Positions 32,124 to 64,000 of a stretch of 64,000 nt of DNA are shown here, one piece after another; the stretch's first letter is position 1; every line of letters begins with the position of its first letter. The translations under genes were made by a program, and so were the position numbers. The DNA is taken from assembly GCA_022710645.1 (NCBI GenBank), contig JAKLGL010000001.1:100152-164151 (forward strand), given 5' to 3'. Source of the stretch: Patescibacteria group bacterium. GTDB lineage: Bacteria; Patescibacteriota; Patescibacteriia; Magasanikbacterales; GWA2-37-8. The notes under the pieces were generated by a model. The model saw only the letters and a program-made list of their open reading frames with translations, had not been told where the DNA came from and did no database searches.

Positions 32124-34097
32124 TTATTCAACCGTGCCGATAATATTCGGCAAGGAGTAATTTTTTAAATTTTTTCCTTGAGAATTTTTGACCGCATAAT
32201 CTCCTTTGGTCAGATTAAACCGAAAGATATTTTGAAACAAACTGTCCTGATATTTTCCCAACATCAGATACCATTTGCCGCTTTTTTTCTCCAGATTTTC
32301 TTTATAAAAACTCAAACTATTCCAATCTACCACATACATATTTGCTCCCGTTGTATTACGACTGACAAAAACCAACTGATCTCCTTGCAGACTGTCGACA
32401 TGTCCGACTTTAAAAGAGTCTAGAGTTGTAATATTGTTTAATTTTAATTCCGAAATAACATTTCCACCCCAATCTATCTCGCGCAACATCAAACTTTTTC
32501 CGGTTAATACGGCTACGTATAAAAATATATCATTGGTTTCCCAACCGGCGGCTTTACCAATCACACCGAATTCATTCAGATATTTACCATGCCAATTATA
32601 TTTTACGAATTTGGTAACTTTTTGAGAAGGATAATACTTACTCAAAACAAAATTGATTTGTTTATTTTCATCAACATCAAATTTAACCCCGGTAAATTCA
32701 TAATTTATCTTCCCTTTTTTAACTAAGGTAAAATCCCTGGCCAAAGCGCCGGTTCCGGTATAAACTTGCAAAGAATAAGTTTCGCCTTTTTGTAAAATTA
32801 TTACCAATTCACGCACACCATCATCATTCACATCGTAAGAAGAAAGGGTTATAACTTTGCCGACAAGCTTAACTACGGATTTTTGTTCCGCTTTTTCCAA
32901 ATCATAACGCAATATTTCGGCATTGTTATTTTTTCCATTTCGAAAGAAATAAAAACCATCCAGACTATCAAGGGCCATCCTACTGCCAAAAGCTATTTCC
33001 GCCGCTTTTCCGATATTCAATCTTTTATATAATTTTGCTCCTTTGCTATTGATATCAAAATACAAATCATCGGCGGTTTGAATCAGGTTATCTTTTATTT
33101 GTCGCGGTGTCCACTCGGGATGCAAACTTTTTATCAAAGCTGCGGCGCCGGAAATATATGCTGTGGAAAAAGACGTCCCTTGCCAAGGTCCGCCAAACTC
33201 TTCATAAAAACCGTATTGGGGAGCAAATCTTTGTAAGCTGTAAATTTTTTCTCCGGGAGCCAAAATATCCACACAAGATCCGTAAGCGGCAAAATAACTC
33301 AAAACGTCTTTTTCATTTACAGAAGAAACTCCCATAATCCAATTTTCTTCACCCATATCATAACAAGCCGGATAAGTTAAATTTTTATTTTCATCACTAT
33401 AAAATACTTGCCCGTTATTCCCGGCTGCAGCTACAATAAAAACACCTCGGCTGTAAGCGCGACGTAAAACTTCTTTGAAATTTTCATCCGGTTCACTGCC
33501 GACAAAACTGAGATTGATGATTTGTGCCCCGTTTTCAACGGCATAATTGATAGCTCTGGCTATATCACTGTAACTTCCGGTACCGTTACTATTTACGGCG
33601 CGAAGTGGCATAATACTGACGTTCCAATTCAAACCTGCACCATCTGATTTATTATCACTTACCGCACCGATGATACCGGCGATTATCGTACCGTGCGACA
33701 CTGCTTCTTTGTCTATATCTTTATCAAAAACGCTAACGCGCGGATCATTATTCTCTTCTACGAAATTCCAACCGTGTATATCGTCTACATAACCGTTTCC
33801 GTCATCATCAAAATTGTTATCCGGAATTTCATTGGTATTGGTCCAAATATTTTTTTCCAAATCAGGGTGCCAAGTATCCACACCGATATCTATAACCGCT
33901 ACGATAATTTTTTGGTTGCCAGTGGTGAAATCCCAAGCCCGCGGCGCGCCTATTTGTTGCCAAATAATTTTTTGTTTTTCATACAAAACATCATTTGGTT
34001 CTTTGGCTGATGATAGTTCGGGAATAAAAAACAAAACCGCAACCAAAAATACGGCCGCAATTGATTTTTTTGTTAAATTGGGATAAAATTCAAACAT
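32124..34097 (-). CDS. Secreted subtilisin-like serine protease (S8) with a C-terminal beta-rich domain
   Basis: Signal peptide; VAVIDIGVD (Asp), SHGTIIAGIIGA (His), GTSFSTAYISGAAALI (Ser). Confidence 0.85.
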   Translation of the reverse strand: MFEFYPNLTKKSIAAVFLVAVLFFIPELSSAKEPNDVLYEKQKIIWQQIGAPRAWDFTTGNQKIIVAVIDIGVDTWHPDLEKNIWTNTNEIPDNNFDDDGNGYVDDIHGWNFVEENNDPRVSVFDKDIDKEAVSHGTIIAGIIGAVSDNKSDGAGLNWNVSIMPLRAVNSNGTGSYSDIARAINYAVENGAQIINLSFVGSEPDENFKEVLRRAYSRGVFIVAAAGNNGQVFYSDENKNLTYPACYDMGEENWIMGVSSVNEKDVLSYFAAYGSCVDILAPGEKIYSLQRFAPQYGFYEEFGGPWQGTSFSTAYISGAAALIKSLHPEWTPRQIKDNLIQTADDLYFDINSKGAKLYKRLNIGKAAEIAFGSRMALDSLDGFYFFRNGKNNNAEILRYDLEKAEQKSVVKLVGKVITLSSYDVNDDGVRELVIILQKGETYSLQVYTGTGALARDFTLVKKGKINYEFTGVKFDVDENKQINFVLSKYYPSQKVTKFVKYNWHGKYLNEFGVIGKAAGWETNDIFLYVAVLTGKSLMLREIDWGGNVISELKLNNITTLDSFKVGHVDSLQGDQLVFVSRNTTGANMYVVDWNSLSFYKENLEKKSGKWYLMLGKYQDSLFQNIFRFNLTKGDYAVKNSQGKNLKNYSLPNIIGTVE

Positions 34098-42357: not shown

Positions 42358-44616
42358 TTACCATAATCTTCCGGAAAGCAACATGTCTCTTTTCCAATCA
42401 TAATAAGTTTTCAATTCACATAAAGATAGACCTTGTTCTTTGGAATCGACAGGACAAACAGTGTCATTGGGTGCGGAAAAGCTTTCTTTTCTTTCATTGT
42501 CTTGCAACTGATTCAAATACAATCCAAATTCATGCATGCCGATCAAGTTCGGAAATTCTTTTCTTTTACCCAAAAGCGAATATCCTTCCAATTTCTTTGA
42601 CGCTTTTAAATCAAACAAATGTAAAATTGTCGGAGTTAAATCAATACCACTTCCGTAAGTATCGACTTCTTTGGGTAAAACCGTTTCCGGAACATACAAA
42701 GCAAAAAACAATTCATCGTAAAAACTCGTTTTGCCGTATAAATCGGGAAAATATTTTTTTTCATAAGCCGCCGGAAAAATAGCATGATCTGCCGTTACCA
42801 AAACCACCGTATTATCGGCGAATTCGCTGTTTTTGAATTTTTTCCAAAATTCCGCAAAGGCATCATCGGTAGTATGAAAAGTATTTAAAATCGGATTTTC
42901 ACCATCTCCATACAAAACCATATCTTGCGGTAAATCAAAAGGAGGGTGCGTATCTACGGTTTCGTAAATAAAAACAAACGGTTCGTTTTTTTCTTCTTTA
43001 GCCGCTTCCATTTTTTTGAATAAAAAGGGAAATAATTGGTGATCGGAATAACCCCAAGATTTCGGTTCTTCTTTCAATTCATCGCGTAATTCCTGGACAC
43101 CCCAAATTTTATCCAAACCCATACTTTGTAAGATAGTGTCTTTATTGGCAAATTCTTTGGCAATGGCGGTCACAAAAAAAGTTTTATCATAACCGTTTGC
43201 TTTGAGAATATTCGGTAAACAAGTCAAATGATGAGCTTTTAACTGCTTTTCTCTTTCTATTTCCTCATGTCCAGTCGGTGGTAAAAACGAGCACAAAGAT
43301 GAAAGTAGAGCCGTTATCGTCGGAGTCGAAGCGTTATAAACCTTGCGAAAAACCGTAGTATTTTTATCAGTAACAAACTCATTTAAACCTGGAGTCAAAT
43401 CTCGATACTTTTCATTATAAGGACCGGTTAAGCGCGCGGAAAAAGATTCCAAATATATTATGAGTAAATTCGGTTTTTTATCGCCTTTTAAAGACCAATT
43501 TAAACTTTTGTTTTCTTCGGGTTTTTCCGCATCCAAAACCGCAAATTTATTTTGATCGTAAAATAAACCAAATTTCTCCAATTTTATCGCGATTTTTTCA
43601 GGCAAAATTCTGTCTTCTCTGGTTTCGCGATAAGTATCGTAAAAATTTTTTATTATCAAAACTTCCGGAGTATTTCGTAAAGAACTTACGGAAAAACAAG
43701 CAAAAGTCGCCACTGCCAATAAAGCAAAATTATAAAAAAGCCAATGGCGAGGAGTTGTCTCGGCGTGAGCTTTTAATACTCGACGAAAAACTCGATAAGA
43801 AAAAAATATCAATAAAAAATAAATTATCAAAGCGCACATTACCGGTAAAAAATAAATTTTTAATCCGGATAAACCGATGTGAGAAAAAATTATCGGACTC
43901 AAATATAAACCGGCTTCATAAACCACTCCGGTATTGGCCATATTCAAGAATAAAGCGGCCCAAAAAAACACTAACCAAAAAAATAAAAACAATTGTTTGC
44001 TTTTTTTCAAATAAAAATAAAACAAACTGCATATTCCGAAACTGCCAAGCCAAAATAATGTCAAAGAAAAAACCCTAAACAAAACGATATTATAATATTT
44101 GGCATTATTGTCAAAAATAAAATAAAAATAGGCCGTATATTGAAAAAAAGCCAAAACGACAAAAATAAAACCGGCCAAAGCAAAGACCGCTCGATTCGTT
44201 TTTTGCCAACCAAGATCTTCTTTGTGTCTTCCCAAAACGATATCCAATCTGAAAAAAATAATCGCGCAAAGAGAAAGAACGTAAAACAAGCTTAATAGTT
44301 CGGAATTGGAAAATAAAACCAAAAAAACCAATGAACCGAGAAAGAAAAGTTCGTTCAAATAACCGATAAATTCTCTCAACCAAAAGGTGTGCCATTTTAA
44401 TTTGGACACCAGATAGCGAAACAAAAGTTTAAACAAAAAAAATAAAACGAAAATAATAGTAGTTGTTGATAAAACCTCCGACCAAAAATATTTTGTCAAT
44501 CTTTCAACTGACAAAACATGATACCAACGCCAACAAAAAGATATAATAAAAGGCCCGGCTAAAGAATATAAGCCGGGCGCGATTTTTCGAAAAATTTCTT
44601 TTGACTTTTCCAACAT
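42358..44616 (-). CDS. LTA-synthase/sulfatase-family membrane protein (alkaline-phosphatase superfamily)
   Basis: About 10 N-terminal TM helices and an extracytoplasmic sulfatase-like domain (LLIIYLESFSARL...VTADHA). Confidence 0.7.
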   Translation of the reverse strand: MLEKSKEIFRKIAPGLYSLAGPFIISFCWRWYHVLSVERLTKYFWSEVLSTTTIIFVLFFLFKLLFRYLVSKLKWHTFWLREFIGYLNELFFLGSLVFLVLFSNSELLSLFYVLSLCAIIFFRLDIVLGRHKEDLGWQKTNRAVFALAGFIFVVLAFFQYTAYFYFIFDNNAKYYNIVLFRVFSLTLFWLGSFGICSLFYFYLKKSKQLFLFFWLVFFWAALFLNMANTGVVYEAGLYLSPIIFSHIGLSGLKIYFLPVMCALIIYFLLIFFSYRVFRRVLKAHAETTPRHWLFYNFALLAVATFACFSVSSLRNTPEVLIIKNFYDTYRETREDRILPEKIAIKLEKFGLFYDQNKFAVLDAEKPEENKSLNWSLKGDKKPNLLIIYLESFSARLTGPYNEKYRDLTPGLNEFVTDKNTTVFRKVYNASTPTITALLSSLCSFLPPTGHEEIEREKQLKAHHLTCLPNILKANGYDKTFFVTAIAKEFANKDTILQSMGLDKIWGVQELRDELKEEPKSWGYSDHQLFPFLFKKMEAAKEEKNEPFVFIYETVDTHPPFDLPQDMVLYGDGENPILNTFHTTDDAFAEFWKKFKNSEFADNTVVLVTADHAIFPAAYEKKYFPDLYGKTSFYDELFFALYVPETVLPKEVDTYGSGIDLTPTILHLFDLKASKKLEGYSLLGKRKEFPNLIGMHEFGLYLNQLQDNERKESFSAPNDTVCPVDSKEQGLSLCELKTYYDWKRDMLLSGRLW

Positions 44617-54595: not shown

Positions 54596-55594
54596 TTACT
54601 TTATTTTAAAACCGAAAATTTTATTTTTCAAAATCCAAAAAATCACTTTCAACGGATGTTTTCTAATGGCCGTACGTGCCGTGCAAATCATCCAAACCGG
54701 TATTTTCAAAGCATCTATATTTTCTCTTTTTTCATCCGCTTGTTTAGAGCACCAAAAATCGGTCAATTTATCAAGTTCGTTGATATTAGTCATCGGTACA
54801 TTATGAACCACAGATGGATATACCGTTCCATTGGGATCCAAAAAGAAAAAGTCGCGTCCCGGAGCATTATCCAAAACCGGAGTTTTGGAAGTTATGAAAT
54901 TGTACATTCCATGCGCGAAAAAAGCGCGCAACCATTTTTTGACATTCCAAGATTTTAATTCGGAATTTATCAAATATTCATATTCTTTTTTGAGCAAATC
55001 CGCTCGCGGATGAACTTCATTTTGTTTACCGCCAAAATAAAAATCAGATGATTGGGCAAAACTATGAGTAAATTCTATTCCCAATTTTTTGGTCAAATCG
55101 TAAACTTTTTCCATTTGATTGATATTTTTTTCCATAACCGTAAAACCGAGACGCAGATTGGTCATTCCGAGTTTTTTCAATTCCGATACCGTAGCCATGG
55201 CTTTTTGAAAACCGCCGGGTATCCCCCGCATTTCATCGTGTGTTGTTTCCAAACCGTCTATGGAAATCGCCACTCCGATATCAGGTTTTATTTTCAAAAT
55301 TTCTTTCATTTGTTTTACTATCAACTCGGTGGCGAAACCGTTGCTGGAAATTACCATTCTGGCTTTCGGACAACGACGATTCAAAATTTTGACAATCTCC
55401 GGCAAATCGCTTCGCAAAAACGGCTCTCCTCCGGAGAGATTTATATCCCGCAAAGAACTTGGTAATTTTTCAAATTGTTCCAAGGTCAATTCCGGATAAT
55501 CTTTGATTTTCCAAATATCGCACATCACGCAACGAGAATTGCAACGATATGTCAATCCAAGCACGCAATCAATTGGTAATTTACATTTTTTCAT
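54596..55594 (-). CDS. Radical SAM protein
   Basis: CNSRCVMC (CxxxCxxC) cluster near the N-terminus. Start set at the internal ATG (MKKCKLP...) to avoid a 56-nt overlap. Confidence 0.65.
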   Translation of the reverse strand: MKKCKLPIDCVLGLTYRCNSRCVMCDIWKIKDYPELTLEQFEKLPSSLRDINLSGGEPFLRSDLPEIVKILNRRCPKARMVISSNGFATELIVKQMKEILKIKPDIGVAISIDGLETTHDEMRGIPGGFQKAMATVSELKKLGMTNLRLGFTVMEKNINQMEKVYDLTKKLGIEFTHSFAQSSDFYFGGKQNEVHPRADLLKKEYEYLINSELKSWNVKKWLRAFFAHGMYNFITSKTPVLDNAPGRDFFFLDPNGTVYPSVVHNVPMTNINELDKLTDFWCSKQADEKRENIDALKIPVWMICTARTAIRKHPLKVIFWILKNKIFGFKIK

Positions 55595-55598
55595 ATGA

Positions 55599-57098
55599 TT
55601 AAAATAATTTTTTCCAAATTTTTGGAGTATAATTTGTGTCTTTGAGATAAACATTCATCAAAATACCGGCCATCAACCAAAAATAAAACATTAACGCGCG
55701 AAATTCAAAATAAGGACCGAAAAATCCGATCACGACTATGGCCGGAGAAAGCGCGCAAAAACCCAAACCGAGAGTTTGCGCGAAACCGTCGGAACCTCTT
55801 TTGTACAAAATATATCCCGCTCTGAAAATAACAATAAAAAAAGCCAACCAACAAATCAAACCCAGAGTCCCGGATTCTCCCCAAATACTGAACCAACTAT
55901 TGTCTATCTGCCCATAAATATTGGAAATACCAAAAGGCAAACTTAAACGATCGTAAAAATTATAATTCAACATAGCCGAAGCCACACCGCCGCCGTAATT
56001 CCCGAGACCGACACCAAACAAAGGATAATTTGCCACCACTTTCAGCGGAGTATTGATGATAAAAAATATACGACCGTATCCTTCGTAACTGTTTTGCCAA
56101 CTGCGCCAAGAAAAAGCTTCAAATACTCTTTCTTGAAAAGACATATTGGTTTTTTCCGTAATCTGAAAAGCGTTTTCCGTAATCGCGATAAAACCGAAAA
56201 AATAAATTATTACCATGACAAAAGAAGCCGCAAAAAAAGACCAGATACGACGATCTTTGACTACCAAAACTCCGGCGACAAAAATCCCGGCTGCCGCTCC
56301 TATCCAACTGGCGCGAGAAGAAGTCAAAAGTAAACCCACGCCGGCGGTAATCATAAAAAAATAATACCAAAAATCCCGATTAATATTTTTCAATTTATAA
56401 ATCAGAGGAAAAGTCATCGCCAAACCGAAAGCCAAAAAACTTCCCAGACGATCATAACGTCCCATAGTGGCAAAAACGCGTTTACCCGGAGCCCAAAATT
56501 GTTCTATTTCTCCGAGCATCGCTCCTCCGCCAAGATTAACCGATTGTGAAAAAAACAGATATTTATCCAAAAATCCGCCGGAAAGATATTGTATGACTCC
56601 GAGCAAGGCTTCCAAAAATACCATAGCCATAACAAGACGAAATATTTTTTTCATCGTAGCGCGATCGAAATTCTCAAACAACACCAAATAATAAACGGCT
56701 ACGAAACGTAAAACTTGACGCAATCCCAAAACAAAAATCAAAGGTCTGTATTGGTTAATAAAAAAAGATATTAACGTGATGACCAAAAATAAACCGAGCC
56801 AAATATTAAGCGGATTGGCCGGAAACAATTTTTTTTCTTTGAAAAAATAACGAACCCAACTCAGAAAAAAAGCCAAATATAAAACAACTTCGGGAAAATA
56901 TTTTACAAGAGAATAATAATTTATAGGAGTAAATCGCAGCACTACGCTTTCAAAAGGAAACCATAAAAGTAAAATTACCAACAAATATTCCATTTTCTCG
57001 GCGCGTAACAATAAAACCACAGCCAAGATCAAAATCAGACCGGCTAAAAACATACTGAAAAAATTGGCTGGCAAATATGCCAAAATCAAACTCATCAT
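55599..57098 (-). CDS. O-antigen ligase/polymerase-like polytopic membrane protein
   Basis: About 12 TM helices with a Wzy_C-like periplasmic loop region; 499 aa. Confidence 0.55.
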   Translation of the reverse strand: MMSLILAYLPANFFSMFLAGLILILAVVLLLRAEKMEYLLVILLLWFPFESVVLRFTPINYYSLVKYFPEVVLYLAFFLSWVRYFFKEKKLFPANPLNIWLGLFLVITLISFFINQYRPLIFVLGLRQVLRFVAVYYLVLFENFDRATMKKIFRLVMAMVFLEALLGVIQYLSGGFLDKYLFFSQSVNLGGGAMLGEIEQFWAPGKRVFATMGRYDRLGSFLAFGLAMTFPLIYKLKNINRDFWYYFFMITAGVGLLLTSSRASWIGAAAGIFVAGVLVVKDRRIWSFFAASFVMVIIYFFGFIAITENAFQITEKTNMSFQERVFEAFSWRSWQNSYEGYGRIFFIINTPLKVVANYPLFGVGLGNYGGGVASAMLNYNFYDRLSLPFGISNIYGQIDNSWFSIWGESGTLGLICWLAFFIVIFRAGYILYKRGSDGFAQTLGLGFCALSPAIVVIGFFGPYFEFRALMFYFWLMAGILMNVYLKDTNYTPKIWKKLF

Positions 57099-57204: not shown

Positions 57205-57229
57205 AGGTGAGGTTTTTTAGGCCTCACCT
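57205..57229 (-). terminator. Intrinsic terminator of cassette d
   Basis: Minus strand: AGGTGAGGcctaaaaaaCCTCACCTttcttttt. Confidence 0.6.
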
Positions 57230-57253: not shown

Positions 57254-58429
57254 TTAGTTGACGCATGATACGAGGTTGTGATCAACACACCGCACGTTCT
57301 CAACGTGTTTGCCGGCAGTCGAACCTTCGCCCTTGGCGTTCATCGGCAATGATGAAGTAATGGAACAGAACCCGATACTACGGTACCAGATTGTCATGCC
57401 GGTAGAATTGAAATAATCAAAACCGCGGTTATTCTGTCCGGCATTCCATCCTTCGATGTAATTGCCAGGAACAAGCTCGGTCAAGATCACTTTGTCCTTG
57501 CAGGACTCCGAAGTTATCGGATTCTGAATCGTCGGCACAACATCAATGTCAGTGTCGGGAGTTTCGTCGACATCCGCAAGGACATCGTCTTCACTCTCCA
57601 CCACCGAATCATTGTCGGACTCACTGATTTCATCAGTATCCGAAGCTTCATCAACTTCTTCAGCTGAATCGCTATCAGGAGTTTCATCAACAACCGGATT
57701 GTCGTTGATTTCGACATTGTCTACATCCGACGCTTCATCCACAACTACATCTTCATCATTGACCACATCTTGCGCGATCAAGCTAACGAAAATTTCTCCA
57801 TTTTCCTCGTCGAATGTGTATCCATCGCCAGGTAGAAGTGTGACAACAAGTGTCTTATCCTGCGACAGCATCTGAAGAACTTCGAATGTCAGAGGTACGG
57901 CGCTGACACCTTTGGGAATAACGAACTTATTCTGGCCACACGTCTCCGGCATGCTATTGATGGCATAATCGATTCCGAGATAAGCACCAGCTAACTTGTA
58001 AGATACACAGATGTCATTTTCCGATTTGCCGGAAATAACGCTAAAAAAGACGGAAATAAATTGATCACGCTTGGCCGAGGTCGGTTCGCCGAAGGCTAAT
58101 TCGATCTCGGGTAAGATCTCGTCGGCATCGGAAACCAGTTCATCATTCACGATATCATCAGTCACCTTTTCTTCGTCAACGAATATTTCATCGTTGATTT
58201 CGGAATCGGTTTCTGCTTCGTTTATGAGCAACTCATCACTGTCGTTTTCAGATTCATCAGTCACGACATTACTGTCATTTTCCGATTCATCAGTGAGTTC
58301 CTCATCAACGATACTGTTGTTGTCTCCCTTTTCCTCGACAGAGGAATTGGTTGACGCCAACGGAACGCAAGAAACGGCAAGCATGGAAACCATCGCGAAA
58401 ACGATCGCGAAAATAAAACCTTTTTTCAT
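57254..58429 (-). CDS. Acidic Calx-beta-like lipoprotein with a Cys-containing C-terminal domain (cassette d)
   Basis: RBS GGAGG and an ATG at 58429 (MKKGF...). Lipobox AVSC. Asp/Glu/Ser/Val low-complexity arms flank a Calx-beta-like core (...DYAINS...KFVIPKGVSAVPLTFEVL...TLLPGDGY). C-terminus has 5 Cys. GC-rich codons. Confidence 0.7.
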   Translation of the reverse strand: MKKGFIFAIVFAMVSMLAVSCVPLASTNSSVEEKGDNNSIVDEELTDESENDSNVVTDESENDSDELLINEAETDSEINDEIFVDEEKVTDDIVNDELVSDADEILPEIELAFGEPTSAKRDQFISVFFSVISGKSENDICVSYKLAGAYLGIDYAINSMPETCGQNKFVIPKGVSAVPLTFEVLQMLSQDKTLVVTLLPGDGYTFDEENGEIFVSLIAQDVVNDEDVVVDEASDVDNVEINDNPVVDETPDSDSAEEVDEASDTDEISESDNDSVVESEDDVLADVDETPDTDIDVVPTIQNPITSESCKDKVILTELVPGNYIEGWNAGQNNRGFDYFNSTGMTIWYRSIGFCSITSSLPMNAKGEGSTAGKHVENVRCVDHNLVSCVN

Positions 58430-58631
58430 GGTAGCCTCCAATGAAAAGTTATTGTTGGACTCTTTCTCTAAGTTTTAAGGAACTTTGGGATTATTACTCC
58501 CAGCTAAATTTTCAATTTCTTGAAAATCTACCTACGGGCAATAAAAAACTCTCTTTGAAATAAGAGAGTGCGGAAATTCGCTGTTTTTACCAATCCGCGC
58601 TCTCTCCAACGCTTTTTGATTTTAACGTGAT

Positions 58632-58660
58632 ATTATAGCACATTTTGGCACTTTTGTCAA
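58632..58660 (-). promoter_or_regulatory. Family promoter module, copy d (perfect TTGACA-17-TGcTATAAT)
   Basis: Minus strand reads TTGACAAAAGTGCCAAAATGTGCTATAAT. Confidence 0.75.
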
Positions 58661-58669
58661 TACCTTAAC

Positions 58670-58687
58670 TTGGCTAATATTAGCCAA
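58670..58687. promoter_or_regulatory. Perfect 18-bp palindrome TTGGCTAATATTAGCCAA, 10 nt upstream of the -35 of copy d
   Basis: Read directly from the sequence. Confidence 0.45.
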
Positions 58688-58734
58688 ATTTACTTTAGCT
58701 TATTTTAGCCAAAATAGCTAAAATTAAACAAAAA

Positions 58735-58754
58735 GGCGGCCCTGAAGGGCCGCC
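58735..58754 (-). terminator. Intrinsic terminator of cassette e
   Basis: Minus strand: GGCGGCCCttcaGGGCCGCCtttttgttt. Confidence 0.65.
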
Positions 58755-58775
58755 GGTTAAAGGTTTAGAAAGTTA

Positions 58776-61622
58776 TTAAAGTCCATCGTGAGTGCAAGTA
58801 TTCACATCGGGGTGGTAGAACCCCACACCCGTACAGACCGGGATAGTCTGCTGGACTGCGCTGGCATTGAAACACTGTGCACTGCACCAACCAGTACTTA
58901 CGAAAAACGCACTGGCCGCACCCTGGAAATTCTGCGGGTTTCCAAGGTGATCATAGAAGACACAGTGGTCGGCGCTTGATGATGTTTTGATGGTGAAGGA
59001 ATTACATACCGACGAGCTCGGTCCCTGGGGCGTATAAACGACCCTTTCGGAACACGAGTAAACGGTAGAGGTAATACTGTCGGGCAAACCATCCTGATTA
59101 GCATCGGGACCGCTCTCGATCCTTTTGCCACCGTGCTGACAATTTGCTCCGACCGGCTCATCAGTGATACGAACAGCTGTGGAAACTCCATCAGCTCCAT
59201 CGCTTCCATCCGTTCCATTAGTGCCATCCGTACCATCTTCACCGTCCTCACCGGGCACACCATTGCAGACATACTTGGTATTGAGAACTTCGACTGCATC
59301 AAGCGTGCCATTGCTGTTGAGGTCAAGGCCGGTTTCGATTTTCTGACCACTGTACTGACAGTTGAGACCAGCGGGTTCAAAGACCACATTCACGAGTGAA
59401 TTAAGGCCATTGGCGCCGTTTGTCCCATTCGTACCATTGGTGCCATCCGTGCCATCTTCTCCGTCTTCACCGTTGCAGACATAGGCAGTGGAATTTTCTT
59501 CACCAAGGTTCAGGATGTTGTCATCGTTGTAATCAACACCTGTCCTGGTACGCTGTCCACCGTTGCCATAAGCATCACAGTTTGTGCCGACCAGAATGTC
59601 GACTACCGTCAAACTGTTATGCCCATTAGCACCGTTTGTTCCATTGGTTCCGTCAGTTCCGTCCGCACCATTGCAGACGTAGGAAATGAACTGAACTTCT
59701 CCGGGGTTAAAATTCCCCGAATCATTCAGATCTATTCCCGCTCTGATACGAGTACCGCCGTTGCCATAAGCATCACAGTTGGTGCCAACCAGAGTGTCGA
59801 CTACTGTCAAGCTGTTATGCCCGTTAGCGCCGTCAATACCATCCGTACCATCGGTACCGTTAGTTCCATCGCTTCCATCAGTTCCATTTACGCCGTCGAT
59901 CCCAGGAGCACCGTCCGCACCGTTACAAAGGTAAACAGTGGAAGTTATCTCCGAATCTTCGAGCGTATTGGAATCATCCAGGTCAAGCCCGGAACGGAAA
60001 CGCAAACCGCCGTTGCCGAAGGTGTCACAGTTGGTGCCGACAGTTGAGTCCTGGATTGTCAGTGAGTTATGACCGTTCGTGCCATTGGTTCCGTTGGTAC
60101 CGTTTGTACCGTCAGTTCCATCTGTGCCGTCCGTGCCATCTTCTCCATCTTCACCATCTTCACCGGGAGCGCCGTCACAAACATAAGTTGTCGCGCTCAC
60201 TTCTCCAGCATCCAGAACACCGTTATCATCCAGGTCAAGCCCGGAACGGATCCTTTGGCCGGTACCGTTGAGGGCATCACAATTGACACCTACGACATTA
60301 TCATAGGCAGTCAGCGAATTGTGACCATTGGTTCCGTTGGTGCCGTTTGTACCGTCAGTTCCATCTGTGCCGTCCGTGCCATCTTCTCCGTCTTCCCCGT
60401 TACAAGAATACCCGACAGAAGTCACTTCAGTAGCATCGAGAATATTATCGTCGTTGATATCCACACCTGCGCGTGTGCGCTGTCCGCCATTAGCGCAGTT
60501 GGTTCCGACAACATCGTCAATAACTACCAGACCATTATGGCCGTTAGCACCATCTGCACCGTCAGTTCCATTGGTACCATCGGTACCGTTAGTTCCGTCA
60601 ATACCGTCCAGGCCATCAGCGCCGTTGCAAAGAAATTGGGTGGAGTCTATTTCACCCAATTCAAGCACATTATTGCGCGCCGTACTGCCGAGACCATCGC
60701 CGTTATCAAGTCCGGAACGGATCCTGATTCCGCCATTGCCATAAGCATCGCAATTGACACCTACGACATTGTCGTAAACAGTCAGAGGATTAAATCCGTC
60801 AGCACCGTCTTTGCCGTTACAGTTATAGGAAACTGAATCGACTTCGACCGCATCAAGCGTATTATCTCCGTCATCATCGACACCTACTCTGGTGCGCTGT
60901 CCACCGTTGCCGTATGCATCGCAATGAGTCCCTACGACATCATCTACGAGAACGAGACTGTTGTGACCATCCGCACCATCTGCGCCATTGCAGATGTATT
61001 TGGTGGAATCTACTTCCACCGCATCAAGCGTACCGTCAGCATCGTCATCAAGACCGGAACGGATTCGGAGTCCGCCATTGCCATACTTGTCACAGTTGGC
61101 TCCGACAACATCGTCGGTAATGGTCAAACTGTTCTTTCCGTTCGTACCGTCTTCACCATCTTGGCCATCCTCACCGTCCTGACCGTCTTCACCATCACAG
61201 ACATAATCCGTTTTGGTGACTTCATCGGAATCAAGGACATCATTGTTGTTCAGGTCAATGCCTGACTCAACTTTTTTCCCGCCGTTTGTGCAGTTGGTAC
61301 CTTTGGGTTCGTCAGTGATGTTAACCAGCGATTTACTGCCGGCTTCACCGTCGTCACCCTTTTCACCGTTGCAAACGAACTCGGTGGACTTGATCTCATT
61401 CTTGTCGAGCTTGCCGTCATCATCGACATCAACACCCGACTCCACTTTCTTGCCGCCGAACTCGCAATTGTCGCCTTCGGGTTCATCGCTGACGAGAACG
61501 AGCGAATCGTGCCCGTCATCACCCTTGGCGGTACTGTTGTCTTCAGCCATCGGAAGGGAACATCCGGCCGTGAACATGGCGAAAACTATCGCCACCACGA
61601 AAACGGTGTTAAAATACTTCTT
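58776..61622 (-). CDS. Giant repetitive lipoprotein: about 14 Cys-pair/DxDxDG calcium-binding-like units separated by collagen-like Gly-X-Y tracts, with a Cys-rich C-terminal domain (cassette e)
   Basis: RBS GGAGGA and an ATG at 61622 (MKKYF...). Lipobox FTAGC. Unit pattern: HNSLT..D..VG.NCD.YGNGG.R.R.G.D..DD..LD..EV.S..Y.CNG.DG.DG, then (GTD/GTN) 3-10 times. C-terminus has about 10 Cys. Confidence 0.8.
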   Translation of the reverse strand, partial: KKYFNTVFVVAIVFAMFTAGCSLPMAEDNSTAKGDDGHDSLVLVSDEPEGDNCEFGGKKVESGVDVDDDGKLDKNEIKSTEFVCNGEKGDDGEAGSKSLVNITDEPKGTNCTNGGKKVESGIDLNNNDVLDSDEVTKTDYVCDGEDGQDGEDGQDGEDGTNGKNSLTITDDVVGANCDKYGNGGLRIRSGLDDDADGTLDAVEVDSTKYICNGADGADGHNSLVLVDDVVGTHCDAYGNGGQRTRVGVDDDGDNTLDAVEVDSVSYNCNGKDGADGFNPLTVYDNVVGVNCDAYGNGGIRIRSGLDNGDGLGSTARNNVLELGEIDSTQFLCNGADGLDGIDGTNGTDGTNGTDGADGANGHNGLVVIDDVVGTNCANGGQRTRAGVDINDDNILDATEVTSVGYSCNGEDGEDGTDGTDGTDGTNGTNGTNGHNSLTAYDNVVGVNCDALNGTGQRIRSGLDLDDNGVLDAGEVSATTYVCDGAPGEDGEDGEDGTDGTDGTDGTNGTNGTNGTNGHNSLTIQDSTVGTNCDTFGNGGLRFRSGLDLDDSNTLEDSEITSTVYLCNGADGAPGIDGVNGTDGSDGTNGTDGTDGIDGANGHNSLTVVDTLVGTNCDAYGNGGTRIRAGIDLNDSGNFNPGEVQFISYVCNGADGTDGTNGTNGANGHNSLTVVDILVGTNCDAYGNGGQRTRTGVDYNDDNILNLGEENSTAYVCNGEDGEDGTDGTNGTNGTNGANGLNSLVNVVFEPAGLNCQYSGQKIETGLDLNSNGTLDAVEVLNTKYVCNGVPGEDGEDGTDGTNGTDGSDGADGVSTAVRITDEPVGANCQHGGKRIESGPDANQDGLPDSITSTVYSCSERVVYTPQGPSSSVCNSFTIKTSSSADHCVFYDHLGNPQNFQGAASAFFVSTGWCSAQCFNASAVQQTIPVCTGVGFYHPDVNTCTHDGL
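60084..60147. repeat. Intragenic near-identical 64-bp repeat, copy 1
   Basis: cattggttccgttggtaccgtttgtaccgtcagttccatctgtgccgtccgtgccatcttctcc. Confidence 0.8.
60326..60389. repeat. Intragenic near-identical 64-bp repeat, copy 2 (one mismatch versus copy 1)
   Basis: cattggttccgttggtgccgtttgtaccgtcagttccatctgtgccgtccgtgccatcttctcc. Confidence 0.8.
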
Positions 61623-61809
61623 CATCACATCCTCCACGCGACATCAGTCGCTTAAGCAGTTATTAATTCCCGAAATACCAAAAATATATTTTTCTAAACC
61701 TTATATTTTCAAAGAACTTTTGCTCTCCTTTAGTTCAAAATCAAGACAAATAAAAAATCGGCTCTCTCCTTGATTTTGAGCTAAAAAAGAACATAAAATT
61801 TAACATAGT

Positions 61810-61838
61810 AAAATAACACATTTTGACGATTTTGTCAA
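61810..61838 (-). promoter_or_regulatory. Family promoter module, copy e (TTGACA-17-TGtTATTTT)
   Basis: Minus strand reads TTGACAAAATCGTCAAAATGTGTTATTTT. Confidence 0.6.
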
Positions 61839-61894
61839 GGGTATTTAGGCACATATAAACATAGTACTTATTTATCTAAAATAAAATAAAAAAA

Positions 61895-61914
61895 GGCGGC
61901 CCCGAAGAGCCGCC
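61895..61914 (-). terminator. Intrinsic terminator of cassette f
   Basis: Minus strand: GGCGGCtcttcgggGCCGCCtttttttatttt. Confidence 0.65.
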
Positions 61915-61971
61915 GATAATATATATCAAAACGAAAATTTTTCCTTGTTTTACGCCCAGGTTAGGCGCATG

Positions 61972-63276
61972 CTATTGGCATTTGTTGGAGTTGTCTCCGT
62001 TCCATATAGCCAAGATACTGCATCCCAGCTTCTGGAACCAGTTGGTATTATTGCCGATGCCGGTGTGTTTTCCGCCAGCTTCAAATTGCGCCGAAGGATT
62101 ACCGTTGGCATCATAGCACATAACTGAGCACCAACCGGAGATCATGAACTTGGTGTAGCCATCGATATTATTCTCGATGATCCTTGTTCCTCCACCTTGT
62201 CCTTCACCCCAGCCAACACAGCTCTTTATTGTCGTGGTCGGCTTTACCCACCAGTCAGTACAGTAGTTGGTCGGACCTGAAGCGGTCTGAACCTCTTTTT
62301 CTGTACCACCATCATCGTCTTTGACGGTCAGGTTGAACTCTTTGTTCGAACCTATCGTGGTATATCCTGTAGGAGTTCTGAGTTTGAAATTGACCTTGAG
62401 CTCCGGCTGTGAAATATTGTCATTGTTTACCTTAACGGTAAATGTTTTGACGCTTTCACCATGCAGAAACTCTACTTCCTTTCCATTGAGATAATCGCCG
62501 GAAGGGTTGAAGGTCAAGCGAGAAAGATCTCCTGTCGCGACCACAGTCACTGCAACTTTGTCGGTCGAAACCGAACGCTTGACAGTAACAGTTGCCGTAT
62601 CCGAGGAGCTATTTTCCGTAATCGTTGCCGACACGGATTCAAAGTTGAACTCCCCGTTGAAGGTTCCGTCATCTTCCAGGATGGTGACGCGGGCTTCCTT
62701 GGTTTTGATCTCAAAATAATTACTCTGATCAATAGTTACCACGATCTCGCGGTTACCATTGTTCGTTTCATTGTTGATAGAGGTCAACTGGAACTTCGCC
62801 GATTTTTCGCCAGCGGAAATGTTCAGTTTATCTCCATTGAGACCTGACACCAGGTAATCCTTGTTGCGGATAGCATCACCGCTGAAACTAAGTGATGCGT
62901 AGATATCGTACTTTTCAGCGCGATTCAGCGTCACATAGATCTCGGCAATACCGCCGTTCTCGTTGATCTTTTCGGGAGCGGAAATGCTCGCCGTCAGATC
63001 TTCGTCGTCAGTATCAACATCCGAATCTGACGCAGTGTCAGTATCGACATTGTCGACATCATCTTCCGCAACATCCTCATCAACGGTTTCGTCCGCCTGA
63101 GTGTTGTCGTTGACGACATCGTCTTTCACGGTCTCGTCACTCACCGCGTCATCGTTGACGGGTTCATAGTCGTGACCATTGTTGTTGTTGAGCTCTTCGC
63201 CCGTTCCGGGTGTGACATAGCAACCTGCAAGAAACATCGTGGCAACCGCCACGAAAAAAACGCTAAGCTTCTTCAT
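61972..63276 (-). CDS. Calx-beta-domain lipoprotein with an acidic N-terminal arm and a Cys-rich C-terminal domain (cassette f)
   Basis: RBS GGAGGA and an ATG at 63276 (MKKLS...). Lipobox LAGC. Two Calx-beta-like modules (...YDIYASLSFSGDAIRNKDYL...VTILEDDG; ...VTVVATGDLSRLTFNPSGDYLNGKEVEFLHGESVKTFTV). C-terminus has 6 Cys. Confidence 0.7.
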   Translation of the reverse strand: MKKLSVFFVAVATMFLAGCYVTPGTGEELNNNNGHDYEPVNDDAVSDETVKDDVVNDNTQADETVDEDVAEDDVDNVDTDTASDSDVDTDDEDLTASISAPEKINENGGIAEIYVTLNRAEKYDIYASLSFSGDAIRNKDYLVSGLNGDKLNISAGEKSAKFQLTSINNETNNGNREIVVTIDQSNYFEIKTKEARVTILEDDGTFNGEFNFESVSATITENSSSDTATVTVKRSVSTDKVAVTVVATGDLSRLTFNPSGDYLNGKEVEFLHGESVKTFTVKVNNDNISQPELKVNFKLRTPTGYTTIGSNKEFNLTVKDDDGGTEKEVQTASGPTNYCTDWWVKPTTTIKSCVGWGEGQGGGTRIIENNIDGYTKFMISGWCSVMCYDANGNPSAQFEAGGKHTGIGNNTNWFQKLGCSILAIWNGDNSNKCQ

Positions 63277-63550
63277 GATGTCCTCCATCAGAAAAGTTAT
63301 TGTTGTACCTGTATATATTCTGAAACCTTATTTTCGTTGATATATTGTAAAGAACTAAATCTTTTCTATCTCCACCTGAAAAATCCGGTGGAAAATGAAA
63401 AAGATAAATATTTTCTATCATCCTGAATCCGAAGGGTGAAGGATCTGTAAATAAGGTAAATCTTTGTTTTAAGATTATTGCTTATTGCAGATTCTTCCCC
63501 GCCTAGGCGGGTCAGAATGACAATGTGATTATTGGTTATTTTGTTACATT

Positions 63551-63565
63551 TTGTTACTGTAACAA
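63551..63565. promoter_or_regulatory. Perfect palindrome TTGTTACTGTAACAA just downstream of the -10 of copy f
   Basis: Read directly; it overlaps the predicted transcription start region. Confidence 0.35.
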
Positions 63566-63571
63566 CGCTAT

Positions 63572-63600
63572 ATTATAGCACATTTTGACGATTTTGTCAA
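63572..63600 (-). promoter_or_regulatory. Family promoter module, copy f (perfect TTGACA-17-TGcTATAAT, plus extended upstream block shared with copy c)
   Basis: Minus strand reads TTGACAAAATCGTCAAAATGTGCTATAAT. Upstream CCCTCCTTCG...CGGGCAAGTAGTC (63601-63640) matches copy c. Confidence 0.75.
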
Positions 63601-63865
63601 CCCTCCTTCGCTAAAGCTACGGGCGGGCAAGTAGTCTTAATTTATCTAATCTTAGAGAAATTTTATCCGCAAAAAGTGACCTAAATCCCCTTTTGCGGAT
63701 GATTTCTCTTACAAAAAAACGCCAAAGGAGAGATTATGGCGATTTTTTGTCAGCGGATTTTCATCTGCCAACCTAAATTTCTCTCCGAAAATTCAAGTTG
63801 AAAGACCAATTTTAATTTACACTTCTCTGAACACTATTTGTATACGATAATGTTCAAGGAAATGT

Positions 63866-63887
63866 GGGGCGGATTTTAACCCGCCCC
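63866..63887 (-). terminator. GC-rich hairpin downstream of the partial gene at the window end
   Basis: GGGGCGGattttaaCCGCCCC. No clear T-run follows, so terminator function is uncertain. Confidence 0.35.
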
Positions 63888-63910
63888 GTGAAAGAAAGAG
63901 CTCTGCTGTG

Positions 63911-64000
63911 TTAAAGGGACGCACACCTGAACGGGTCGCAATCCCAAGCGCAGACCTGAGTAGTACCGTTTTCACCGCCGTTACAGGAGCCGCATTCAAC
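63911..64000 (-). CDS. 3' end of a further Cys-rich secreted-protein gene (partial, start beyond the window end)
   Basis: Minus-strand frame reads ...VECGSCNGGENGTTQVCAWDCDPFRCASL*. Six Cys in 29 residues, GC-rich codons, and a hairpin downstream, all matching the cassette lipoprotein C-termini. Confidence 0.45.
   Translation of the reverse strand, partial: VECGSCNGGENGTTQVCAWDCDPFRCASL

What the first reader, a model, noticed from the sequence alone, without database searches (positions are those of the whole stretch)
57254..63276. Calcium theme: Calx-beta lipoproteins with acidic low-complexity arms, sitting 17-25 kb from a Ca-type P-type ATPase and a DsbA-like protein
The 391-aa and 434-aa lipoproteins contain regions matching the Calx-beta pattern (beta-sandwich with D..DY...G.L.F..GE and V.I.DD-type motifs), long Asp/Glu/Ser/Val-rich segments, and C-terminal domains with 5-6 Cys. 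The adjacent giant protein has Asp-rich Ca-loop-like repeats. The window also encodes a P2-type (Ca2+-like) ATPase at 37550-40057 and a membrane-anchored thioredoxin-fold protein at 26655-27482. Together this suggests an extracytoplasmic, calcium-dependent, disulfide-bonded surface layer or adhesion apparatus, which is plausible for an epibiotic or obligately attached lifestyle.
Basis: inference. Interest (0 to 1): 0.55.

Follow-up and report, generated by a model that had tools for sequence, protein, structure and literature searches.

The report
Lineage-specific surface lipoproteins of a CPR bacterium
Three neighbouring genes of an ultra-small "candidate phyla radiation" bacterium encode membrane-tethered surface proteins: long acidic, Calx-beta-like or collagen/EF-hand-loop stalks that each end in the same rare cysteine-rich domain, so they are probably a surface coat or attachment fibres, but nothing ties them to the distant ion pump or to the supposed DsbA.

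Summary
The three minus-strand genes exist as described: A 57254-58429 (391 aa), B 58776-61625 (949 aa), C 61972-63276 (434 aa). All three carry a lipobox.

- **Calx-beta call:** Pfam PF03160 gives no hit on the full proteins. C has two divergent Calx-beta domains (E 1.8e-9 to a genuine Calx-beta protein). A has a Calx-beta-like fold only in a predicted structure.
- **Protein B:** 12 DUF7151 modules. Each has a Cys pair, and 8 of 12 match the EF-hand loop pattern. They alternate with collagen-like GXY runs.
- **Shared C-terminal domain:** B and C share a 6-Cys all-beta C-terminal domain, and A carries a distant 4-Cys version. The family is tiny: 6 true clusters among 1.84 billion representatives.
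- **Gene organisation:** each gene has its own GGAGG ribosome-binding site, consensus-like promoter and terminator. Codon usage differs sharply from the neighbours (GC3 0.49-0.56 against 0.31-0.37). A evolves much faster than the flanking genes.
- **Organism:** Candidatus Magasanikbacteria.
- **Calcium theme:** not supported beyond B. The ATPase lacks the PEGL motif and misses every Ca-ATPase cut-off. The "DsbA-like" protein has CPYG instead of CxxC.

Best reading: abundant stalk-and-head surface lipoproteins. Function is inferred, not shown.

The parts
57254..58429 (-). Gene A, a 391-aa lipoprotein. Layout: signal peptide with lipobox (residues 1-21), acidic disordered arm (22-107), Calx-beta-like beta-sandwich with a conserved Cys pair C141/C164 (108-222), second acidic arm (223-300), 4-Cys all-beta C-terminal domain (301-391).
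57764..58108 (-). Central domain of A (residues 108-222). Calx-beta-like fold in the predicted structure only; no sequence-profile support.
   Evidence: Model pLDDT 76-92. Foldseek PDB top hits are CALX CBD1/CBD12 and integrin beta4 Calx-beta. Pfam finds nothing relevant and hhalign E is 0.02.
57257..57529 (-). C-terminal domain of A (residues 301-391): 4 Cys (C310, C355, C381, C389), 7 predicted beta strands. A distant relative of the B/C-type domain.
   Evidence: (hhalign 93%, E 4e-7)
57205..57229 (-). Terminator-like hairpin after gene A (8-bp stem, then a T-rich run).
   Evidence: dG -12.2 kcal/mol, z -3.95
58632..58660 (-). Promoter-like site for gene A: TTGACA-17-TATAAT, 12 of 12 matches, with an extended TG.
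58776..61625 (-). Gene B, a 949-aa lipoprotein. Layout: signal peptide with lipobox (residues 1-22), 12 DUF7151 modules alternating with 11 collagen-like GXY runs of 3-12 triplets (84 triplets in all), then a 6-Cys C-terminal domain.
59046..61502 (-). Repeat region of B (residues 42-860). Each DUF7151 unit has an invariant Cys pair that brackets a D-x-[DN]-x-[DN]-G-x-L-D-x-x-E loop. 8 of 12 units match PROSITE PS00018.
   Evidence: 8 observed against 0.03 in shuffles; the PDB hits are almost all EF-hand loops, lanmodulin-type best
58779..59045 (-). C-terminal domain of B (residues 861-949): 6 Cys and a GWCSAQCF motif. 88% identical to the orthologue in the related genome.
58735..58754 (-). Intrinsic terminator after gene B: GGCGGCCC-TTCA-GGGCCGCC followed by a T run.
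   Evidence: dG -19.2 kcal/mol
61810..61838 (-). Promoter-like site for gene B: TTGACA-17-TATTTT, 10 of 12 matches, with an extended TG.
61972..63276 (-). Gene C, a 434-aa lipoprotein. Layout: signal peptide with lipobox (residues 1-19), acidic arm (20-95), two divergent Calx-beta domains (96-205 and 206-325), 6-Cys C-terminal domain (330-434).
62302..62991 (-). The two tandem Calx-beta-like domains of C (residues 96-325).
   Evidence: phmmer E 1.8e-9 to P0005, which has 5 Calx-beta domains at Pfam E 2e-110. hhalign for domain 2 gives 96%, E 5e-9. Pfam on isolated domain 2 gives 20.8 bits, below the cut-off of 27.
61975..62289 (-). C-terminal domain of C (residues 330-434): 6 Cys and a GWCSVMCY motif. 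It is the least conserved part of C (60% identity, against 84-89% for the Calx-beta domains).
61895..61914 (-). Intrinsic terminator after gene C.
   Evidence: dG -17.1 kcal/mol
63572..63600 (-). Promoter-like site for gene C: TTGACA-17-TATAAT, 12 of 12 matches, with an extended TG.
63911..64000 (-). 3' end of a fourth gene that runs off the window. It encodes a 196-aa Cys-rich lipoprotein, 'D' (read in full in locus L002, which is 100% identical to the window for A, B and C and so stands in for the sequence beyond its end). D is a possible fourth carrier of the Cys-rich domain, and it lies in the same high-GC3 block.
   Evidence: (hhalign 47%, E 2e-4)

Best explanation
A, B and C are three separately transcribed genes for lipid-anchored cell-surface proteins of a Candidatus Magasanikbacteria (CPR/Patescibacteria) cell. 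All three follow one plan: an N-terminal lipid anchor, a long spacer, and a C-terminal all-beta domain of about 90-105 residues with conserved Cys.

The spacers differ:
- **A:** acidic disordered arm, one Calx-beta-fold domain, second acidic arm.
- **C:** acidic arm followed by two divergent Calx-beta domains.
- **B:** a rod of 12 small modules (DUF7151), each with a conserved Cys pair around an EF-hand-type acidic loop, alternating with short collagen-like GXY runs.

The most likely mechanism is inferred, not shown. The lipid tail holds the protein on the outer face of the membrane. The spacer projects the C-terminal domain away from the cell. In B, Ca2+ bound in the loops stiffens the rod. 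The C-terminal domain is the working tip, binding a ligand on a host cell or a surface. Together with two adjacent exported proteins that have the same unusual codon usage, they form an abundant, fast-evolving surface coat or set of attachment fibres.
For: **Shown by the sequence and the searches**
- Lipoboxes are present and the +1 Cys is conserved.
- The domain architectures are established.
- EF-hand loop pattern in B: 8 observed against 0.03 expected, and the repeat profile hits almost only EF-hand loops in the PDB.
- The C-terminal domain is shared.
- The family is tiny. There are 6 genuine clusters among 1.84e9 representatives (2 of the 8 hits are repeat junk). Only one genome was found among 185,579 species representatives with two B-type peptide patterns.
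- Each gene has a GGAGG ribosome-binding site, a promoter matching 10-12 of 12 consensus positions, and its own terminator hairpin.
- Codon usage is distinct. GC3 is 0.49-0.56 in A, B and C, against 0.31-0.37 in the other genes sampled from the window. The same contrast appears for the five-gene block (SP325, D, C, B, A) in all three related genomes.
- Divergence is uneven. Against the related genome (L001), A is 38% identical, the C-terminal tip of C 60% and lipoprotein D 32%, while Wzy, radical SAM and GHL15 are 72-85%.
- In the two relatives the repeat region of B differs in content and is interrupted by assembly gaps.
- The neighbourhood is made of cell-envelope genes: Wzy_C, GHL15 with FG-GAP repeats, and glycosyltransferases.

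**Inferred**
- Surface exposure, high expression, Ca2+ binding, disulfide bonding and the adhesive role of the tip.
Against: - There is no experimental or expression data.
- The lipoprotein-processing genes (lgt, lspA) could not be looked for outside the window.
- The model of C is poor (pLDDT 46). The fold of the C-terminal domain could not be searched on its own, so its function is unknown.
- The GXY runs are short (3-12 triplets) and have almost no Pro, so a collagen triple helix is unproven.
- The canonical Ca-site residues of Calx-beta are degraded in C and absent in A.
- The codon-usage island includes many G-ending Lys, Gln and Glu codons. That fits foreign origin as well as it fits expression-linked bias.
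- Conserved gene order was seen in only three closely related genomes, so it says little about functional linkage.
Confidence: 0.55

Rival explanations
1. Envelope tethers or spacers. The shared C-terminal domain is not an outward-facing tip but a common docking module. It fixes the far end of each lipoprotein to the cell wall or to an S-layer, so the proteins bridge the membrane and an outer layer and set the distance between them, as Braun's lipoprotein or C-terminal sorting and anchor domains do.
For: - One C-terminal domain sits on otherwise unrelated proteins encoded side by side, which is the usual signature of an anchoring or sorting module.
- In B this domain is the best conserved part: 88% identity for the last 89 residues, against 73% for the last 210.
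- The signals compatible with high expression suit structural envelope components.
- The adjacent exported 325-aa protein and the 504-aa membrane protein could be partners.
Against: - The paralogous domains within one genome are very different: B against C is about 29% identical, and A is detectable only by profile methods. That fits different ligands better than one common docking site.
- In C this domain is the fastest-evolving part of the protein (60% against 84-89%).
- No known anchor family matches: Pfam and NCBIfam give nothing for A or C.
Confidence: 0.2
2. The three lipoproteins, the P-type ATPase at 37550-40057 and the thioredoxin-fold protein at 26655-27482 work together as a Ca2+-dependent, Dsb-oxidised adhesion system.
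For: - B has 8 EF-hand-type loops.
- The best NCBIfam match of the ATPase is the PMR1-type Ca-ATPase.
- A membrane-anchored thioredoxin-like protein exists in the window.
Against: - The ATPase scores 484 bits against a cut-off of 798 and has IPEEFP instead of PEGL in its TM4 motif.
- The thioredoxin-like protein is below Pfam's cut-off (21.6 against 23.2 bits) and has CPYG, not CxxC.
- 17-30 kb of unrelated genes lie between them and the cluster: transketolase, sulfatase-family protein, MurB, glycosyltransferases, subtilase.
- These genes have separate transcription units and ordinary codon usage.
Confidence: 0.05
3. A horizontally acquired cassette. The five-gene high-GC3 block, including A, B and C, came from a higher-GC donor or a phage. 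B would then be a tail-fibre-like protein, and the block need not be part of the core biology of the cell.
For: - GC3 is 0.46-0.70 in the block against 0.21-0.43 in its flanks, in three genomes.
- G-ending Lys, Gln and Glu codons are enriched.
- B hits phage tail-fibre PHROG families.
- The family has a very narrow distribution.
Against: - The PHROG hits fall mainly on the GXY stretches.
- No integrase, other phage-type gene or tRNA gene was found in the window or among the flanks that were annotated.
- The block sits at the same place in three genomes whose flanking genes have diverged to 72-91% identity. It keeps its composition even where the background GC3 has dropped to 0.21-0.30. That argues for maintenance by selection rather than recent arrival.
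- The lipoprotein signal peptides are those of cellular surface proteins, not virion parts.
Confidence: 0.1
4. A cation sink or nutrient-capture layer. The highly acidic arms and the loops mainly bind and store divalent (or rare-earth) cations, or capture charged substrates at the surface, rather than mediating attachment.
For: - Net charge is -28 to -33 per arm and -126 for mature B.
- The EF-type loops have their best PDB matches in lanmodulin-type proteins.
Against: - It does not explain the conserved, neutral, Cys-rich C-terminal domain or its rapid divergence.
- The PDB matches cover only 12-16 loop residues at E about 2e-3.
Confidence: 0.1

Closest known systems
Calx-beta domain proteins (Pfam PF03160): CBD1/CBD2 of Na+/Ca2+ exchangers, integrin beta4, and multi-Calx-beta bacterial surface proteins such as P0005
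   Same: - C aligns over two full domains to genuine Calx-beta repeats, with the G..DY, F..GE and terminal DD/DDD motifs in register.
- The best structural matches of A's central domain are CALX CBD1/CBD12.
   Different: - Below Pfam's gathering score.
- The inner DD...E motif is NN or ND in C and absent in A.
- A has an extra conserved Cys pair around the DY loop.
- Only 1-2 domains per protein, flanked by acidic disordered arms and a lipid anchor.
Fibrillar adhesins of bacteria: a stalk of repeated Ig-like domains plus a terminal adhesive domain, often stiffened by Ca2+ (for example LapA, SiiE, MpIBP). This comparison is from my own knowledge.
   Same: - Stalk-plus-terminal-domain layout, acidic and repetitive stalk, fast evolution, and a repeat region that differs between relatives.
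- The first domain of C weakly hits the LapA domain family.
   Different: - Anchored by an N-terminal lipid rather than by LPXTG or a type 1 secretion retention module.
- Much smaller (391-949 aa).
- The terminal domain belongs to no described family.
Bacterial collagen-like proteins (Scl1/Scl2 of Streptococcus, BclA, Lcl) and collagen-like phage tail fibres
   Same: Pfam Collagen hit at 98 bits. NCBIfam SclB and PHROG tail-fibre hits come through the GXY runs.
   Different: - The runs are only 3-12 triplets long, are almost free of Pro (G-[ETAQ]-[DN] type), and are interrupted 12 times by globular DUF7151 modules.
- All NCBIfam equivalog cut-offs are missed by a wide margin (88 bits against 325).
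- Lipid-anchored, not LPXTG.
EF-hand-type DxDxDG calcium loops outside helix-loop-helix domains: Excalibur domain, dockerin, thrombospondin type-3 repeats, lanmodulin. Family descriptions are from my own knowledge.
   Same: - 12-residue loop D-x-[DN]-x-[DN]-G-x-L-D-x-x-E, and 8 of 12 repeats fit PS00018.
- Almost all PDB hits of the repeat profile are EF-hand loops, with lanmodulin-type proteins best.
- Cys residues flank the loop, as in Excalibur and TSP3.
   Different: - No EF-hand, Excalibur or dockerin Pfam hit at E<=1.
- The family is DUF7151, which has no paper in the searched library.
- Metal binding is untested.

Membership tests
Calx-beta (PF03160) | Score at or above Pfam's gathering threshold (27 bits) | tested here: not met
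   The full-length proteins give no hit at E<=1. Isolated domain 2 of C scores 20.8 bits, E 4e-4. Domain 1 of C and the central domain of A give no Calx-beta hit.
Calx-beta (PF03160) | Significant sequence homology to proteins that are bona fide members | tested here: met
   For C only. E 1.8e-9 (database of 5.8e9 sequences) to P0005, which has 5 Calx-beta domains at Pfam E 2e-110. hhalign for domain 2 gives 96%, E 5e-9; domain 1 gives E 0.005. For A, E 0.02 is not significant.
Calx-beta (PF03160) | Calx-beta type beta-sandwich fold | tested here: met
   Central domain of A (pLDDT 76-92): top PDB hits are CALX CBD1/CBD12 and integrin beta4 Calx-beta, TM about 0.6. Generic Ig-like folds follow closely. 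The model of C is low-confidence but also retrieves NCX1 and CALX.
Calx-beta (PF03160) | Acidic Ca2+-coordinating cluster (inner DD...E loop and terminal DDD, as in NCX CBD1; this feature is stated from my own knowledge) | tested here: inconclusive
   By inspection of the alignments. Domain 1 of C has NNE...N and a terminal EDD. Domain 2 of C has NND...E and a terminal DDD. A has no such cluster. Ca binding cannot be predicted from this.
Bacterial lipoproteins (PROSITE PS51257 type) | Signal peptide with a lipobox [LVI..][ASTVI][GAS]C within the first 35 residues | tested here: met
   A, B and C all match, and they are the only such ORFs in the window. The Cys is invariant in the orthologues.
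Bacterial lipoproteins (PROSITE PS51257 type) | Lgt and LspA present in the genome | not testable with these tools
   Only the window and 10-kb flanks of related loci could be read. Neither gene is among the ORFs that were annotated.
DUF7151 (PF23657) | Pfam score at or above the gathering threshold | tested here: met
   436 bits in 12 stretches, against a cut-off of 27.2.
Collagen triple-helix repeat proteins (PF01391) | Uninterrupted G-X-Y repeats long enough to form a trimeric helix | tested here: inconclusive
   The Pfam score of 98 bits is above the cut-off. But the 11 runs have only 3-12 triplets each and almost no Pro. Trimer formation was not tested.
EF-hand calcium-binding domains | 12-residue loop pattern (PS00018) within a helix-loop-helix | tested here: inconclusive
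   The loop pattern is met in 8 of 12 repeats, against 0.03 by chance. There is no EF-hand Pfam domain. The PDB matches cover the loop only.
P2-type Ca2+-ATPase (SERCA/PMR1/PMCA) | NCBIfam equivalog cut-off and the PEGL motif of TM4 | tested here: not met
   The best match is PMR1-type at 484 bits against a cut-off of 798. Only the generic P-type ATPase model passes. The motif reads IPEEFP. Cation_ATPase_N and Cation_ATPase_C are present.
DsbA-like thiol-disulfide oxidoreductase | Thioredoxin fold with a catalytic CxxC | tested here: not met
   Thioredoxin_4 scores 21.6 bits against a cut-off of 23.2. There is no CxxC anywhere in the protein; the corresponding site reads CPYG.

The most novel reading that the evidence does not exclude
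The Cys-rich C-terminal domain is a previously undescribed ligand-binding module. It is confined to a few Magasanikbacteria-like lineages and marks the host-contact proteins of these epibionts. A, B, C and possibly D would be its paralogous carriers with different specificities, kept at very high expression by a dedicated codon-usage island. B would be a new kind of metal-stiffened rod in which Cys-bracketed EF-type loops alternate with mini-collagen segments. Its loops often carry Asp at position 9, which I recall is also a feature of lanmodulin, so binding of Ca2+ or even lanthanides is conceivable.
Probability: 0.2. Interest if true: 0.65.

Novelty: new variant of a known kind. Interest (0 to 1): 0.4.

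Why it matters
How CPR/Patescibacteria attach to their hosts or to surfaces is largely unknown outside a few cultured Saccharibacteria. This locus offers concrete candidates that can be cloned:
- three or four exported, fast-evolving lipoproteins with signals compatible with high expression, all sharing an uncharacterised terminal domain;
- an unusual modular rod (DUF7151 with an EF-type loop, alternating with collagen-like triplets) that gives a first functional hypothesis, metal binding, for a Pfam domain of unknown function.

For annotation practice, it also shows that Calx-beta-like domains can sit below Pfam's threshold, and that a "calcium theme" built from distant genes in one window does not hold up.

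Tried and rejected
**Searches that found nothing**
- Pfam and NCBIfam on the full proteins gave nothing for A and C.
- PDB sequence searches found nothing significant. Full-length B and the C-family profile gave no hits at the thresholds used. The two C-terminal domain profiles gave only an influenza-type neuraminidase at E 0.064 and DrmA at E 1.4, which I judge to be chance.
- No paper in the searched library mentions DUF7151 or PF23657, or combines Calx-beta with Patescibacteria. A Saccharibacteria paper that was opened says nothing about CPR lipoproteins.
- No tRNA genes or Rfam families in the window. TRF finds only short, imperfect repeats at the GXY stretches of B.

- The structure prediction of C failed with 4 near-identical sequences (mean pLDDT 46).
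The rerun with B-type sequences found one genome.

**Hits set aside**
- Two hits of the exhaustive search (P0014, P0015) are repeat junk, and a third (P0019, E 5.5e-4) was not examined.
- A phage origin for B was rejected because the PHROG hits come mainly through the GXY runs.
- The 200-aa DUF7151 protein in L001 is an artefact of an assembly gap, not a short orthologue.

Full report
**1. What is there**

The region holds three minus-strand ORFs:
- A, 57254-58429, 391 aa
- B, 58776-61625, 949 aa
- C, 61972-63276, 434 aa

The longer ORF versions (MEDIMKK... and similar) only reflect a GGAGG ribosome-binding site 5-6 nt upstream of the MKK start codon, which is conserved in all three genes.

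Each gene looks like a separate transcription unit.
- Promoter-like sites: C has TTGACA-17-TATAAT at 63600-63572, A has the same at 58660-58632, and B has a 10/12 site at 61838-61810.
- Terminator hairpins followed by T runs: 61914-61895, 58754-58735 and 57229-57205, with dG -17.1, -19.2 and -12.2 kcal/mol. No shuffle folds as well.

The organism is a Candidatus Magasanikbacteria MAG, a member of the CPR (source name; record title).

**2. Lipoproteins and acidic arms**

All three N-termini satisfy the PROSITE-type lipobox rule, and they are the only ORFs of 100 aa or more in the window that do. The +1 Cys is invariant in the C family (4 sequences) and in the much more divergent A family (8 sequences, 31-56% identity to A).

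The arms (A 22-107 and 223-300; C 20-95) have 37-42% Asp+Glu, almost no basic residues, and net charge -28 to -33. In the A model the arm residues have pLDDT below 50.

**3. Calx-beta**

The call is nevertheless largely right.

For C:
- One of only five database hits is P0005, a protein with five strong Calx-beta domains (Pfam E 2e-110).
- C residues 99-322 align to two consecutive P0005 domains, with the G..DY, F..GE and terminal DD(D) motifs in register. The E-value is 1.8e-9 for a search of 5.8 billion sequences.
- Profile-profile comparison gives 96% probability (E 5e-9) for domain 2 and a full-length but weak alignment (E 0.005) for domain 1.
- Scanned alone, domain 2 reaches 20.8 bits (E 4e-4; cut-off 27). 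Domain 1 hits the LapA domain family, PF20579, at E 0.0024.

For A:
- No sequence method is significant.
- The AlphaFold model built on 8 family members is confident for residues 101-222 (pLDDT 76-92). Its best PDB matches are CALX CBD1/CBD12 (E 1e-5 to 1e-4, TM about 0.6) and the integrin beta4 Calx-beta domain.
- A also has a family-invariant Cys pair (C141/C164) around the DY loop.

The acidic residues that, from my knowledge of NCX/CALX CBD1, bind Ca2+ are only partly retained in C and are missing in A. Ca2+ binding by these domains is therefore open.

**4. Protein B**

Pfam finds 12 DUF7151 domains (E 6e-134) and collagen repeats (E 2e-28). Dissection shows 12 units of 44-56 residues.
- Each unit has an invariant Cys pair bracketing a D-x-[DN]-x-[DN]-G-x-L-D-x-x-E loop.
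- The units are separated by 11 runs of 3-12 G-X-Y triplets (84 triplets in all), mostly G-[ETAQ]-[DN] and nearly free of Pro.
- Eight units match the PROSITE EF-hand loop PS00018. Composition-preserving shuffles give 0.03 matches on average, with a maximum of 2 in 2000.
- A profile of the 12 units matches almost only EF-hand loops in the PDB. Lanmodulin-type proteins are best (E about 2e-3), and the matches cover loop positions only.

Metal binding remains an inference.

The JGI metagenome contig (L002) encodes a B identical to the window's, while a short-read Logan contig stops 75 codons into B. The B genes of both relatives contain assembly gaps, and one of them carries a further Cys-rich acidic repeat type. 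The repeat region is therefore hard to assemble, and its content differs between relatives.

**5. The shared C-terminal domain**

B and C share a 6-Cys pattern (GP..C, x13, C..., GWCSxxC[FY]..., C..., C).

An exhaustive HMMER search of 1.84 billion cluster representatives with a B+C profile returned 8 hits. Six I count as genuine family members (P0019, E 5.5e-4, was not examined) and two are repeat junk:
- the C orthologue;
- three B-type proteins (E 2.8e-16 to 1e-7);
- a 332-aa lipoprotein with another architecture, from a different assembly (GCA_964542005.1).

A scan of 185,579 species-representative genomes with two B-type peptide patterns found one genome, also Magasanikbacteria.

The tail of A has 4 Cys and a GFCS motif. 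It is related at hhalign 93%, E 4e-7 over 56 columns. Reciprocal weak HMM hits fall on the right regions, with E 6e-4 to 9e-3 in a 1148-ORF set. In the A model this domain has 7 beta strands and pLDDT 70-90.

No Pfam, NCBIfam or PDB sequence match exists. A fourth possible carrier is the 196-aa Cys-rich lipoprotein just upstream, whose 3' end is at window 63911-64000 (hhalign 47%, E 2e-4).

**6. Context and evolution**

The window is otherwise made of housekeeping and cell-envelope glycan genes:
- RecR, ClpB-like, RsmH, MurJ, LepA, RecJ, FtsW and MurB;
- many glycosyltransferases and RmlB/D-like enzymes;
- a sulfatase-family protein and a subtilase.

Directly downstream of A lie Wzy_C, radical SAM and GHL15/FG-GAP genes.

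The gene order is the same in the two relatives: giant coiled-coil protein, 504-aa membrane protein, 325-aa secreted protein, lipoprotein D, C, B, A, Wzy_C. In L001 radical SAM and GHL15 follow; the L008 contig ends within Wzy_C.

Identity between the window genome and the more distant relative L001:

| Gene or part | Identity |
|---|---|
| Wzy_C | 81% |
| Radical SAM | 85% |
| GHL15 | 72% |
| C, whole protein | 77% |
| C, Calx-beta domains | 84-89% |
| C, C-terminal tip | 60% |
| B, C-terminal tip | 88% |
| A | 38% |
| D | 32% |

Codon usage is strikingly different in the cluster.
- GC3 is 0.49-0.56 in A, B and C, against 0.31-0.37 in ten other genes sampled from the window.
- The five exported-protein genes (SP325, D, C, B, A) have GC3 0.46-0.70 in all three genomes, even where the flanks have dropped to 0.21-0.30.
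- Both C-ending and G-ending codons are enriched.

I read this, together with the strong expression signals, as most compatible with abundant surface proteins. Foreign origin cannot be excluded.

**7. The distant genes**

- The ATPase (37550-40057) has the N- and C-terminal domains of P2/P3-type pumps. It misses every NCBIfam Ca-ATPase cut-off (best is PMR1-type, 484 against 798 bits) and has IPEEFP where PEGL is expected.
- The thioredoxin-like protein (26655-27482) is sub-threshold and has CPYG instead of CxxC.
- Nothing but proximity within 64 kb connects either gene to the cluster.

**8. Verdict**

The window-wide calcium and Dsb theme is over-reached.

The best mechanism is a set of stalk-and-head surface lipoproteins forming a coat or attachment fibres. 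The main rival is that the shared domain docks them to an outer envelope layer.

This is a new variant of a known kind (fibrillar-adhesin-like surface proteins) carrying an undescribed terminal domain. Interest is moderate.

Noticed in passing
window 57254-64000; L002 7617-16023; L001 7743-14890; L008 3594-12343: A codon-usage island. Five adjacent exported-protein genes (325-aa secreted protein, lipoprotein D, C, B, A) have GC3 0.46-0.70, against 0.21-0.43 in the flanking genes, in all three related genomes. Both NNC codons and G-ending Lys, Gln and Glu codons are enriched. Whether this is expression-linked bias or foreign origin is unresolved.
   Followed up: partly
L002 7617-8594 (just beyond the window's end): A 325-aa protein with a cleavable-looking, non-lipoprotein signal peptide, tandem KITAIETKNTEQDT repeats, and a conserved beta-rich C-terminal region ending in ...FKFGVLF. 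That ending is reminiscent of outer-membrane beta-barrel termini, which is odd for a CPR bacterium. It has the highest GC3 of the block (0.70) and no Pfam hit.
   Followed up: partly
window 63911-64000 and L002 8776-9366: A 196-aa Cys-rich lipoprotein, 'D', whose gene runs off the window. Its C-terminal half aligns weakly to the shared Cys-rich domain (hhalign 47%, E 2e-4). It evolves fast, at 32-44% identity between genomes.
   Followed up: partly
L002 1233-7251 (outside the window): Conserved orphan genes upstream of the cluster: a giant coiled-coil protein (1474 aa or more) and a 504-aa membrane protein with a coiled coil and a C-terminal CC..C motif. Neither has a significant Pfam hit.
   Followed up: no
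window 26655-27482: A membrane-anchored thioredoxin-fold protein with CPYG in place of CxxC and several other Cys. It sits within a glycosyltransferase and methyltransferase cluster. It is not a canonical DsbA.
   Followed up: partly
window 37550-40057: A P-type ATPase with IPEEFP instead of PEGL in TM4 and LFLELICDP in the TM6-like segment. Its ion specificity is unclear. It lies between a radical SAM gene and a transketolase-like gene.
   Followed up: partly
window 55599-57098 and 54596-55654: A Wzy_C (O-antigen-ligase-like) gene lies immediately downstream of A, and its ORF overlaps the next, radical SAM, ORF by 56 nt. Wzy_C enzymes include protein O-glycosyltransferases (from my own knowledge), so the Ser/Thr-rich acidic arms could be glycosylation targets. 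This is pure speculation and was not tested.
   Followed up: no
L001 11702-13394; L008 7526-10670: The B orthologues in both relatives are broken by assembly gaps inside the repeats. The L001 copy carries a second type of Cys-rich acidic repeat (SCWD..CDP.EDKN.DG.CT..DC.G) that resembles thrombospondin type-3 Ca-binding repeats.
   Followed up: no
window 58776-61625: The EF-type loops of B often carry Asp at loop position 9 (T-L-D-x-x-E). Their best PDB matches are lanmodulin-type EF-hand proteins (E about 2e-3, loop only). NCBIfam also gave a faint lanmodulin hit.
   Followed up: partly
window 42358-44616 and 32124-34097: A 752-aa sulfatase-family protein and a 657-aa subtilase (S8) lie among the glycan-synthesis genes. 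They may be further envelope-related enzymes.
   Followed up: no
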